The notes below the pieces were generated by a model, which was not told where the DNA came from, searched no databases, and saw only the letters and a list, made by a program, of their open reading frames with translations. Positions 59,421 to 59,865 of a stretch of DNA of 64,000 bases are shown in pieces. Position numbers and translations under genes: made by a program. The first letter of the stretch is position 1. Each line of letters opens with the position of its first letter. The stretch is from a virus: the IMG/VR virus record IMGVR_UViG_3300027851_000017, positions 9,303 to 73,302 of that record. One strand, given 5' to 3'.

Positions 59421-59608
59421 TAGTGGACGGCACAGGATTCGAACCTGTATCGCCATAATTCAAATCACTTTTACGCACGATAAATATGCTGCAGGCATTG
59501 TCGTTGCAACCTACCGTATCAAAAGATGCAGCGTAGGCGTGATGTATCGTTTAAGATACAACCGCGGAGGCCGACTTTCCAGTTAGTCGTAGCCGTCCAC
59601 TAATGAAA
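59421..59608 (-). ncRNA. expanded tRNA-like gene: acceptor + T-arm and matching acceptor + D-arm separated by about 100 nt of extra sequence
   Basis: ttagtggacggc at 59421 pairs with gccgtccactaa at 59596. T-arm acaggTTCGAATcctgt and D-arm cgac-taactggaaa-gtcg are present. Internal hairpin gtatc-ttaaac-gatac. Confidence 0.3.
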
Positions 59609-59744
59609 GCAAATAGTAGTAGTGATAGTCCCAAACGGTGTTTTCGGCTCCCGGCACTTCATCTGCTAGCTAGGCTAGGCTTACGAATCAGATAGTTGAT
59701 GGCACTGGTTTACGCGGTAAACTATATACTTCTACTACTAAAAT

Positions 59745-59865
59745 GATAACACTGACAGGTATCGAACCTGTATTTCACTGGCGATCCCCACCATACGCAT
59801 ACATAAAATAAGCGTGTGGGCCCTTGCGTACTAGCCATTGTACTACAGTGTTATCATTTGCTCTA
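59745..59865 (-). ncRNA. expanded tRNA-like gene with about 45-nt internal insertion
   Basis: Acceptor aacactg/cagtgtt, D-arm gtac-aatggcta-gtac, T-arm acaggTTCGATAcctgt. No canonical anticodon arm. Confidence 0.3.

What the first reader, a model, noticed from the sequence alone, without database searches (positions are those of the whole stretch)
59421..59865. Two tRNA-like genes whose acceptor halves are separated by 45-100 nt of extra internal sequence
At 59421-59608 the 3' acceptor + T-arm (…acaggTTCGAATcctgt-gccgtcc) and a 5' acceptor + D-arm (ggacggc-ta-cgac…gtcg) are perfectly complementary, but about 180 nt apart instead of 76. At 59745-59865 the same pattern holds: acceptor aacactg/cagtgtt, D-arm gtac…gtac and T-arm are present, yet there is about 45 nt extra and no canonical anticodon arm. 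These could be intron-containing tRNAs, tRNA-derived structured ncRNAs or decoys.
Basis: seen in the sequence. Interest (0 to 1): 0.6.

Follow-up and report, generated by a model that had tools for sequence, protein, structure and literature searches.

The report
Non-decoding tRNA-mimic RNAs in a phage
Two genes inside a T5-like phage's tRNA cluster make conserved tRNA-shaped RNAs in which a different structured module replaces the anticodon arm, so they cannot read codons; they are the same kind as the "tRNA-like stable RNAs of unknown function" long annotated in phage T5.

Summary
Both elements lie on the minus strand, inside a cluster of 26 tRNA genes.

**Element A** (59425-59598, 174 nt) and **element B** (59748-59852, 105 nt) each have:
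- a perfect 7-bp acceptor stem;
- U8 and a D arm;
- a GGTTCGA-type T arm;
- no anticodon stem-loop.

**B is a family.** I found 10 distinct sequences in uncultivated phages. My covariance model scores them 72-139 bits, against at most 45 bits for ordinary tRNAs. 15 of 31 base pairs show compensatory changes. The lower "anticodon" stem is invariant and carries a tandem A.G/G.A. Two 3'-side bulges follow. The terminal loop varies from 4 to 13 nt.

**A has 5 homologues.** 7 of 45 pairs are compensatory. Its 123-nt insert folds into a multi-helix domain.

They are not intron-containing tRNAs, decayed pseudogenes, tmRNAs or Y RNAs. The 22 ordinary tRNA genes checked in the window encode CCA; A and B do not.

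The closest known relatives are the T5 genes rna1 and rna2, annotated "tRNA-like stable RNA with unknown functions", and T4 species 1 RNA. The window phage is T5-like, and its RNA block is syntenic with T5's.

Verdict: new members of a known but functionally unsolved kind. Function is inferred, not shown.

The parts
59424..59598 (-). Element A: a 174-nt tRNA-like RNA gene plus discriminator A (59424). Two extra pairs, GU/AC, extend the acceptor helix to 59600/59423.
   Evidence: Sequence reading. Custom scan. CM R2 gives 222.5 bits, against at most 34 bits for any non-member. 98% of cells are paired and 7 of 45 pairs are compensatory.
59592..59598 (-). A: 5' acceptor strand GGACGGC
   Evidence: It pairs 7/7 with 59425-59431. 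Pair 7 changes C-G to U-A in L033.
59572..59589 (-). A: D arm CGAC-UAACUGGAAA-GUCG
   Evidence: An A-U pair becomes G-C in L033. The loop carries the GG typical of D loops.
59449..59571 (-). A: 123-nt module in place of the anticodon arm. It comprises the linker GCCUC, the stem CGC-G-GUA/UAU-G-GCG, hairpin H1 GUAUC/GAUAC, helix AUCAC/GUGAU, hairpin H2 CCUAC/GUAGG with a variable tip, and UGCA/UGCA.
   Evidence: RNAalifold and per-sequence folds. Compensatory changes occur in H1, AUCAC/GUGAU, and H2 outer and inner. The inner junction is only partly resolved.
59432..59448 (-). A: T arm ACAGG-UUCGAAU-CCUGU
   Evidence: Invariant among the 5 homologues.
59425..59431 (-). A: 3' acceptor strand GCCGUCC, followed by A then CUA (no encoded CCA)
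59747..59852 (-). Element B: a 105-nt tRNA-like RNA gene plus discriminator A (59747)
   Evidence: Rfam tRNA 42.3 bits with a 47-nt insertion. CM R1 gives 137 bits, against at most 45 bits for ordinary tRNAs. 92.5% of cells are paired and 15 of 31 pairs are compensatory, with 0 of 500 shuffles reaching this.
59846..59852 (-). B: 5' acceptor strand AACACUG
   Evidence: All 7 acceptor pairs show compensatory changes across 10 sequences.
59828..59843 (-). B: D arm GUAC-AAUGGCUA-GUAC
   Evidence: 100% paired, nearly invariant
59776..59826 (-). B: extended arm replacing the anticodon arm. It reads: invariant CAAGGG/CCAGUG (two Watson-Crick pairs, A.G, G.A, two G-C pairs); a 5-nt 3' bulge RAUYR; stem CCnnC/GnnGG; a 3-nt bulge AUG (AUU in L047); a 4-bp covarying stem; and a loop of 13 nt here.
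   Evidence: Segment table. In one search, helix 3 never varies and its two central positions are always non-standard. Helix 4 has 1 compensatory pair of 5, and helix 5 has 4 of 4. Loops elsewhere are GCAA, GAAA, UUGA, 6 and 7 nt.
59755..59771 (-). B: T arm ACAGG-UUCGAUA-CCUGU
   Evidence: 3 of 5 pairs are compensatory.
59748..59754 (-). B: 3' acceptor strand CAGUGUU, followed by A then UCA (no encoded CCA)
60270..60467 (-). Three sigma-70-like promoters upstream that could drive the whole RNA block (HP, C, B, X, A, tRNA-Leu)
   Evidence: 10 of 12 matches each. The region is nearly invariant among relatives. The first promoter closely resembles T5 promoter P16-17, which precedes rnaX.

Best explanation
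A and B are genes for stable, non-decoding tRNA-mimic RNAs. They are the same kind of molecule as T5 RNA1/RNA2 and T4 species 1 RNA.

Shown:
- Each keeps the parts of a tRNA that make the L-shaped body: a 7-bp acceptor stem, U8, the D arm with GG, the T arm with UUCGA, and in B also G26 and a 4-nt variable loop.
- Each replaces the anticodon arm with a family-specific structured module that has no anticodon loop.
- Both are under purifying selection for structure in related phages.

Inferred:
- They are transcribed with the tRNA cluster from the strong promoters about 0.4-1 kb upstream.
- RNase P and 3' trimming cut them out, because they present a tRNA-like acceptor/T domain.
- They accumulate as stable RNAs and are not used in translation.
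- The tRNA body serves for maturation, stability and docking onto tRNA-binding machinery.
- The substituted arm is the effector part and binds a protein or RNA partner. In B the candidate site is the invariant CAAGGG/CCAGUG helix with its tandem A.G/G.A and the two 3' bulges.

Which partner, and whether the outcome is sequestration (decoy) or recruitment (adaptor), is unknown.
For: - Anatomy read directly, and Rfam tRNA 42.3 bits for B.
- B family: 10 distinct sequences from Logan/ENA, IMG/VR and JGI contigs. CM scores are 72-139 bits against at most 45 bits for tRNAs. 92.5% of cells are paired and 15 of 31 pairs are compensatory. No shuffle in 500 reaches this, and slid controls give 23-40% paired.
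- B's loop varies from 4 to 13 nt while the lower stem and bulges are fixed.
- B's core is invariant in phages whose shared proteins are only 27-42% identical.
- A family: 5 sequences, 173-222 bits against at most 34 bits for non-members. 98% of cells are paired, and 7 of 45 pairs are compensatory, spread over 7 of 9 helices. Slid controls give 26-49%.
- The 22 ordinary tRNA genes checked encode CCA. A, B and C do not.
- B's acceptor sequence and discriminator (A, G, U) are not conserved, so no shared identity set exists.
- The T5 record annotates rna1 (144 nt) and rna2 (125 nt) as 'tRNA-like stable RNA with unknown functions' inside its tRNA cluster. T5 rna2 folds as acceptor, D arm, an enlarged arm and a T arm.
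- The window's DNA polymerase is 50% identical to those of T5-like phages.
- The order YqeY-like gene, promoter, RNA block, tRNA is shared with T5.
Against: - There is no expression, size or end-mapping data. Stability and RNase P processing are inferred only.
- One close relative, L026 (97% YqeY identity), has lost B and most of A. A deletion fused element C's 5' part to A's T arm, so the RNAs are dispensable at least there.
- A is absent from the L027/L029/L034 lineage.
- In three B homologues (L033, L047, L056) the acceptor helix is irregular, with 2-nt bulges or only 5 clean pairs. This could impair RNase P recognition.
- A rests on only 5 fairly close sequences, and its alignment was fitted to the model.
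- The covariance model for B gives T5 rna2 only 16 bits. The likeness to T5 is architectural, not demonstrated homology.
Confidence: 0.8

Rival explanations
1. They are true tRNA genes interrupted by introns. Splicing restores a normal anticodon arm.
For: The extra sequence sits exactly where bacterial tRNA introns sit. Rfam aligns B end to end with the tRNA model, treating the middle as an insertion.
Against: - No 5-bp stem with a 7-nt loop can be formed from the flanks. In B, positions 27-31/39-43 always contain A.G and G.A.
- The only terminal loop ranges from GCAA to 13 nt.
- No Rfam intron or ribozyme family matches at E up to 10.
- Inserts of about 34 and 100 nt are far below group I size (my own knowledge).
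- All 20 amino acids are already served by ordinary tRNAs.
Confidence: 0.03
2. They are decaying pseudo-tRNAs with no function, left over from insertions into tRNA genes.
For: One relative (L026) lost them by deletion, and another lineage lacks A. The neighbouring element C carries a pentanucleotide repeat expansion in L027.
Against: The inserted parts themselves are conserved and covary: 4 of 4 pairs in B's distal stem, and several helices in A. B's core of about 28 nt is identical in phages whose proteins are 27-42% identical. Decay would not preserve this.
Confidence: 0.03
3. They are Y-RNA-type partners of the phage's Ro60/Rsr protein: tRNA-like modules whose long arm binds Rsr.
For: - The same cluster holds a TROVE/Ro60 gene (53137-54540, Pfam 6e-10).
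- Tandem YrlA-like RNAs lie directly upstream of it.
- YrlA RNAs are tRNA mimics, and one is cut by RNase P and receives CCA (PMC4201824).
- In a distant phage (L001 9305-9459), a tRNA-like RNA with free acceptor ends carries the two Ro-stem strands in its anticodon-arm position.
Against: - A and B lack the motifs shared by all the Y-RNA units next to TROVE genes (GUGGCGUAGAU..CGGUUACUUC and CGUUUGUUCCCGC).
- They lie 5 kb from rsr.
- No TROVE gene is annotated in the T5 stretch examined, which holds all its tRNA-like stable RNAs.
- No TROVE gene was found in the 1-15 kb held around the other B copies, though those stretches are short.
Confidence: 0.1
4. They act only in cis, as RNase P/RNase Z entry sites. 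They punctuate the long transcript and release the neighbouring RNAs; the excised pieces have no role of their own.
For: They lie head to tail with other structured RNAs (HP, C, X) and tRNA-Leu, downstream of shared promoters.
Against: A processing signal needs only the acceptor/T domain. This does not explain the invariant lower stem and bulges of B, or the conserved 123-nt domain of A. In L047/L051, B has its own promoter.
Confidence: 0.1

Closest known systems
Phage T5 RNA1 (rna1, 144 nt) and RNA2 (rna2, 125 nt), annotated 'tRNA-like stable RNA with unknown functions', and rna3 (73 nt, 'putative tRNA-like RNA'), in NC_005859
   Same: - They lie inside the phage tRNA cluster on the tRNA strand.
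- T5 rna2 has an acceptor helix, a D arm, a GCAGG-UUCGAAU-CCUGU T arm and an enlarged arm in place of the anticodon arm.
- The size range is 73-144 nt, against 73, 105 and 174 nt here.
- The host phage is of the same broad type (DNA polymerase 50% identical).
- The RNA block follows a YqeY-like gene and a near-identical promoter, as in T5.
   Different: There is no detectable sequence homology in the substituted arm; CM R1 gives T5 rna2 only 16 bits. The T5 RNAs were seen as stable RNAs experimentally, according to the record's notes. Here nothing is measured.
Phage T4 species 1 RNA (rnaC, 139 nt) and species 2 RNA (rnaD) in the T4 tRNA region
   Same: They are small stable RNAs encoded next to the tRNA genes (PMC2330249, Figure 1 legend). 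rnaC has a CCGGG-UUCGAAU-CCCGG T arm and a terminal helix formed by its two ends.
   Different: The rnaC terminal helix is imperfect (tandem U.U) and I found no clear D arm. rnaD shows no tRNA features in the fold.
Bacterial and phage YrlA Y RNAs (Rfam RF02553)
   Same: They are tRNA mimics with D and T arms and tRNA tertiary contacts, and the anticodon-stem equivalent carries a non-tRNA function. This phage encodes Rsr and YrlA-like RNAs nearby.
   Different: YrlA is circularly permuted (T arm, closed acceptor hairpin, D arm), and its ends form the Ro-binding stem. A and B have the normal tRNA order, open acceptor ends and no Ro-stem motifs.
tmRNA tRNA-like domain
   Same: An acceptor plus T arm is joined to a large non-tRNA domain in place of the anticodon arm.
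   Different: - A and B have full D arms.
- Position 3:70 is A-U in A and C-G in B, not G.U.
- The candidate reading frame in A is broken by a stop in L033.
- ARAGORN finds no tmRNA.

Membership tests
Canonical tRNA (Rfam RF00005) | 7-bp acceptor stem, D arm and T arm with a UUCRA loop | tested here: met
   Read in the sequence. B scores 42.3 bits, above the gathering score of 29. For A, only the T arm scores, at 14.7 bits.
Canonical tRNA (Rfam RF00005) | Anticodon arm: a 5-bp stem and a 7-nt loop with U33 and an anticodon | tested here: not met
   ARAGORN calls neither element. B's terminal loop is 4-13 nt across homologues, and the lower stem has an invariant A.G/G.A. A has a multi-helix domain instead.
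Canonical tRNA (Rfam RF00005) | 3' CCA encoded, as in the other tRNA genes of this genome | tested here: not met
   22 of 22 ordinary tRNAs checked have CCA. A has CUA and B has UCA. One B homologue (L053) does encode G-CCA.
tRNA gene with a group I intron | Intron in the anticodon loop, flanked by the two halves of a normal anticodon stem, with a recognisable group I core | tested here: not met
   No Intron_gpI or other ribozyme hit at E up to 10. The flanks cannot form a standard stem. The inserts are about 34 and 100 nt.
YrlA / Y RNA | Ro/Rsr-binding stem formed by the 5' and 3' ends, with conserved strand motifs | tested here: not met
   The motifs are present in every unit next to TROVE genes but absent from A and B. 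Rfam YrlA hits fall only at 54618-54877.
YrlA / Y RNA | Permuted order: T arm, closed acceptor hairpin, D arm | tested here: not met
   A and B have the order acceptor-5', D, insert, T, acceptor-3'.
tmRNA | G3.U70 alanine identity, a tag reading frame, pseudoknots | tested here: not met
   Position 3:70 is A-U (A) and C-G (B). The candidate frame is not conserved. ARAGORN finds no tmRNA.
T5-type tRNA-like stable RNAs (rna1/rna2) | Encoded within a T5-like phage's tRNA cluster, on the tRNA strand, 70-180 nt | tested here: met
T5-type tRNA-like stable RNAs (rna1/rna2) | tRNA-like acceptor, D and T arms with an enlarged, non-decoding central arm | tested here: met
   T5 rna2 fold, compared with A and B
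T5-type tRNA-like stable RNAs (rna1/rna2) | Sequence homology to T5 rna1 or rna2 | tested here: not met
   CM R1 gives T5 rna2 16 bits, E 0.02. blastn of B against 50,697 phage records finds nothing relevant.
T5-type tRNA-like stable RNAs (rna1/rna2) | Accumulates as a discrete stable RNA in infected cells | not testable with these tools
   No transcript data are available.

The most novel reading that the evidence does not exclude
The B family is a previously undescribed, widely conserved class of phage tRNA mimic. Its tRNA body docks onto a host tRNA-binding factor, such as a tRNA-targeting defence nuclease, a modification or repair enzyme, or a sensor of uncharged tRNA. The invariant kinked arm blocks or redirects that factor. 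On this reading B is a dedicated RNA anti-defence or host-takeover effector, not a translation component. A would be a second such effector with a different module.
Probability: 0.25. Interest if true: 0.7.

Novelty: new member of a known kind. Interest (0 to 1): 0.5.

Why it matters
Phage tRNA clusters have been known since the early T4 and T5 work to hold tRNA-like stable RNAs, and their function has never been established. The B family gives that old problem something concrete to work with:
- a compact 97-105-nt RNA;
- a well-supported fold;
- an invariant, non-tRNA motif that marks the likely binding surface;
- natural variants for mutagenesis;
- a natural deletion relative (L026).

Viral tRNAs are now known to counter tRNA-cleaving defences; T5 tRNA-Lys against PARIS is one case (PMC11464382). 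Non-decoding tRNA mimics are therefore plausible players in the same conflicts.

For annotation: tRNA finders either miss these genes or call them odd tRNAs. They should be labelled tRNA-like ncRNA.

Tried and rejected
- **Close relatives in cultured phages.** blastn of the region and of B alone against INPHARED gave only tRNA-Leu or chance hits.
- **Neighbouring genes as anchors in IMG/VR.** The neighbouring 126-aa ORF found nothing there. The metallophosphatase found only relatives about 40% identical, without the elements.
- **Exact-pattern scans for A.** Both were empty in IMG/VR. The B pattern found nothing in 185,579 bacterial and archaeal genomes.
- **Ro-binding motifs.** I looked for them in A and B and found none.
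- **A as a mini-tmRNA.** A GCA-started frame ends in UGA in the window but is cut by UAG in L033. Rejected.
- **A kink-turn in B.** The tandem A.G/G.A is separated from the 5-nt bulge by two G-C pairs, so it does not fit the classical K-turn layout (my reading). I also saw no covariation between the bulge and the D loop.
- **A hammerhead core in element X** (CAGAUGA...CGAAAC). Stem II cannot form. Rejected.
- **Thermodynamic z-scores alone** are weak for B (-1.7). The case rests on covariation, not folding energy.
- **RNAalifold on plain MAFFT alignments** mis-paired B's T arm. I replaced it with a hand-drawn structure and model-based alignment.

Full report
**1. What is in the sequence**

The window carries 26 ARAGORN-called tRNA genes, all on the minus strand between 49292 and 61778. 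Together they cover all 20 amino acids. The two elements of the finding lie inside this cluster on the same strand.

Element A, read 5' to 3' on the minus strand:
- acceptor GGACGGC (59598-59592);
- UA;
- D arm CGAC-UAACUGGAAA-GUCG;
- a 123-nt insert (59571-59449);
- T arm ACAGG-UUCGAAU-CCUGU;
- acceptor GCCGUCC (59431-59425);
- discriminator A.

Element B:
- acceptor AACACUG (59852-59846);
- UA;
- D arm GUAC-AAUGGCUA-GUAC;
- G26;
- a 51-nt arm;
- AAAU;
- T arm ACAGG-UUCGAUA-CCUGU;
- acceptor CAGUGUU (59754-59748);
- discriminator A.

ARAGORN calls neither element. Rfam's tRNA model scores B at 42.3 bits, with 47 nt inserted where 13 model positions should be. For A it recognises only the T arm.

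I wrote a scan for a T arm followed by a 7/7 acceptor match and a 4-bp D stem. On the tRNA strand it returns A and B as the only long (94 nt or more) candidates of that quality. One further minus-strand hit, at 32668-32805, lies outside the cluster and has a weak TTTAACT loop.

**2. Context**

The phage is a distant T5-like virus.
- Its DNA polymerase is 50% identical to those of Enterobacter phage KKP_3711 and Vibrio phage pVp-1.
- The replication genes match PHROGs for RNR, SbcC, helicases and NAMPT.

No cultured phage is close at the DNA level.

All 22 ordinary tRNA genes I checked encode CCA after the discriminator. A (CUA), B (UCA) and a third tRNA-like element, C (AAU), do not.

Upstream lies a non-coding block that is nearly invariant among relatives. 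It holds three promoter-like sites with 10 of 12 matches on the tRNA strand.

**3. Relatives**

The neighbouring YqeY-like protein and a 126-aa protein have relatives 64-97% identical in Logan and ENA assemblies. Their contigs gave syntenic loci.
- B is present in L027-L030, L033, L034, L037 and L064.
- A is present in L030, L033, L037 and L064.

Scans with B's conserved core found further, more divergent copies in IMG/VR and JGI metagenomes. None appeared in 185,579 bacterial and archaeal genomes.

The divergent carriers share only distant protein homologues with the window, at 27-42% identity. L056 keeps the local gene order.

**4. Element B is a well-defined RNA family**

I built a covariance model from a hand-drawn structure.
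- It scores the B copies at 72-139 bits (10 distinct sequences).
- Every ordinary tRNA in 310 kb of phage loci scores 45 bits or less.

On the model-based alignment:
- 92.5% of cells are standard pairs.
- 15 of 31 pairs show changes on both sides: acceptor 7 of 7, distal stem 4 of 4, T stem 3 of 5.
- No shuffle in 500 reaches the observed values.
- Structures slid by 1-3 columns give only 23-40% pairing.

The arm that replaces the anticodon arm has fixed architecture:
- an invariant helix CAAGGG/CCAGUG, whose two central positions are always A.G and G.A;
- a 5-nt bulge RAUYR on the 3' side;
- a 5-bp stem CCnnC/GnnGG;
- a 3-nt bulge AUG (AUU in L047);
- a 4-bp stem of free sequence;
- a loop that is GCAA, GAAA, UUGA, 6, 7 or 13 nt.

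A loop this variable cannot be an anticodon loop. The conserved, probably functional, part is the proximal half of the arm.

The nucleotides that build the tRNA core are kept: U8, the D-loop GG, G26, a 4-nt variable loop ending in U, and the UUCGA T loop.

The acceptor sequence and the discriminator (A, G or U) are not conserved. No common aminoacylation identity is therefore apparent.

Other points on B:
- One copy (L053) encodes G-CCA.
- Three copies (L033, L047, L056) have irregular acceptor helices.
- In L047/L051, B has its own TTGACA...TAAGAT promoter and heads a tRNA cluster.

**5. Element A is a smaller family**

Five sequences score 173-222 bits with model R2. Everything else scores 34 bits or less, and the next best hits are copies of element C.

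On the fitted alignment:
- 98% of cells pair.
- 7 of 45 pairs are compensatory, spread over the acceptor, the D stem, hairpin H1, helix AUCAC/GUGAU, and the outer and inner parts of hairpin H2.
- Slid controls give 26-49% pairing.

The tip of H2 is ATC/GAT, CTC/GAG, GACTTAT/ATAAGTC or GAG/CTC in different phages.

The insert begins with a 5-nt linker and a stem CGC-G-GUA/UAU-G-GCG, which opens into a multi-helix junction. The inner junction is not fully resolved, and the sample is small and closely related.

**6. What they are not**

*Intron-containing tRNAs.* No anticodon stem-loop can be assembled. No Rfam intron or ribozyme family matches. The inserts are too short for a group I core (my own knowledge).

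*Decayed pseudogenes.* The inserted parts themselves covary and are conserved across deep divergence.

*tmRNA.* The G3.U70 pair is absent, both elements have full D arms, and the candidate reading frame is not conserved.

*Y RNAs in the known sense.* The window encodes a TROVE/Ro60 protein at 53137-54540, with two YrlA-like RNAs directly upstream. Every TROVE locus I fetched carries tandem units with shared strand motifs. A and B lack those motifs, have open acceptor ends in the normal tRNA order, and lie 5 kb away.

**7. Closest known**

The T5 RefSeq record annotates several RNAs within its tRNA cluster:
- rna1 (144 nt) and rna2 (125 nt), 'tRNA-like stable RNA with unknown functions';
- rna3 (73 nt), 'putative tRNA-like RNA';
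- five further 'stable RNA with unknown functions'.

T5 rna2 folds as an 8-bp terminal helix, a D arm, an enlarged central arm and a GCAGG-UUCGAAU-CCUGU T arm. This is the architecture of A and B.

The layout is also shared. In T5, a YqeY-like gene (annotated 'tRNA amidotransferase') is followed by promoter P16-17, the 719-nt rnaX and a tRNA. That promoter's sequence is nearly the same as the first promoter of the window's block.

However, model R1 gives T5 rna2 only 16 bits. The relation is one of kind and position, not demonstrated sequence homology.

T4 rnaC (species 1 RNA) likewise has a T arm and a terminal helix, next to the T4 tRNA genes (PMC2330249).

**8. How it most likely works**

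*Shown:* a conserved tRNA-shaped body with a substituted arm and no anticodon.

*Inferred:*
- transcription with the cluster;
- excision by RNase P and 3' trimming, by analogy with M. smegmatis YrlA, which RNase P cleaves and which receives CCA (PMC4201824);
- accumulation as a stable RNA that is not charged.

The tRNA body would give stability and access to tRNA-binding machinery. The substituted arm would bind a specific partner.

The partner is unknown. Candidates include host tRNA-directed enzymes or defence nucleases (a decoy role), the phage Rsr system, or the nearby YqeY-like tRNA-binding-domain protein.

L026 has lost B and most of A through a deletion between the T arms of C and A. 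A is also absent from the L027 lineage. This argues for an accessory, condition-dependent role rather than an essential one.

**9. Novelty and limits**

These are new members of a known but unexplained kind.

B is new as a defined family. It is absent from Rfam 15 as a separate family and from cultured phages at BLAST sensitivity. It has strong comparative support.

Limits:
- Nothing here measures expression or function.
- The alignments used for pair counts were fitted to the proposed structures.
- A's support rests on five related sequences.

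Noticed in passing
window 53137-54540 (-) and 54610-54890 (-): A TROVE/Ro60 (Rsr) homologue (Pfam 6e-10) sits inside the tRNA cluster. Two tandem YrlA-like Y RNAs lie directly upstream (Rfam YrlA 29.6 and 28.5 bits, below the gathering score of 69). All TROVE loci fetched (L001-L006) carry arrays of such units, with shared strand motifs GUGGCGUAGAU..CGGUUACUUC and CGUUUGUUCCCGC.
   Followed up: partly
L001 9305-9459 (+): A 155-nt tRNA-like RNA with free acceptor ends (CCGGGGC/GUCCCGG), a D arm and a T arm. Its anticodon-arm position holds the two Ro-stem strands in swapped order, closed by a hairpin. 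It looks like a circular permutation of YrlA, 550 nt upstream of a TROVE gene.
   Followed up: partly
window 59860-59932 (-): Element C: a 73-nt tRNA-like RNA with an acceptor helix, a GGUU/AACC D arm and a T arm, but no recognisable anticodon arm. No tool calls it. It is conserved in all relatives, and a T-stem pair changes from G.U to C-G in L030. In L027 the 5' part carries an expansion of TAGGC/TAGGT pentanucleotide repeats.
   Followed up: partly
window 59936-60110 (-): A 175-nt RNA closed by an 18-bp perfect stem (z-score -4.2). The stem shows compensatory changes in L030 (UUGCG/CGCAA becomes UCGAG/CUCGA). It is absent from L026 and has no Rfam match.
   Followed up: partly
window 59609-59744 (-); L033 about 9100-9235: Element X, between B and A: a core of about 100 nt is roughly 80% identical in L033. 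The closing stems there differ in sequence but are still complementary. In L033 it sits at a different place in the block, and it is missing from L030, L037 and L064. It matches no known family.
   Followed up: partly
window 60110-60480 (-): About 350 nt of non-coding sequence are almost invariant among relatives whose proteins are 71-97% identical. The stretch contains three or four TTGnnn-17-TATAAT promoters about 85 nt apart. The first closely matches T5 promoter P16-17.
   Followed up: partly
window 56313-56410 (-); L026 7914-8004; L033 12607-12697: A 98-nt tRNA with a CUUAUAA anticodon loop (UAU, Ile), a long variable arm and an encoded CCA. A long variable arm is unusual for tRNA-Ile.
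   Followed up: partly
window 61789-61873 (-): An unusual tRNA-like gene next to tRNA-Met. It has an anticodon loop CUUCUAA (UCU, Arg), no clear D arm, a long extra region and an encoded CCA. ARAGORN misses it, and its only Rfam hit is a weak tRNA-Sec match (29.4 bits).
   Followed up: partly
L026 4391-4471 and 4628-5296: This relative, 97% identical in YqeY, has a deletion joining element C's 5' part to element A's T loop and 3' acceptor. The deletion removes B and most of A. A 222-aa ORF is inserted nearby.
   Followed up: partly
window 59322-59408 (-) versus L026/L027/L030: The tRNA with anticodon UAG after element A is a normal class II tRNA-Leu in the window. In L026, L027 and L030 it is replaced by an unrelated, short-variable-loop tRNA-like gene with the same anticodon and an encoded CCA.
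   Followed up: no
L041 8787-8927 (+) (= L042 844-984): In a more distant relative there is another long (141 nt) tRNA-like gene. It has acceptor GGGAGAG/CUCUCCU, a D arm, a T arm, an encoded ACCA and an insert of about 66 nt. It is unrelated in sequence to A or B.
   Followed up: no
L067 (T5) 21431-21506 within rnaX: The 719-nt T5 'RNAX' begins with a 76-nt tRNA-like element (acceptor GCCGACC/GGUCGGU, T arm GUAGG-UUCGAAU-CCUAC) that lacks a normal anticodon arm. RNAX may therefore be a string of several small RNAs, like the block in this window.
   Followed up: no
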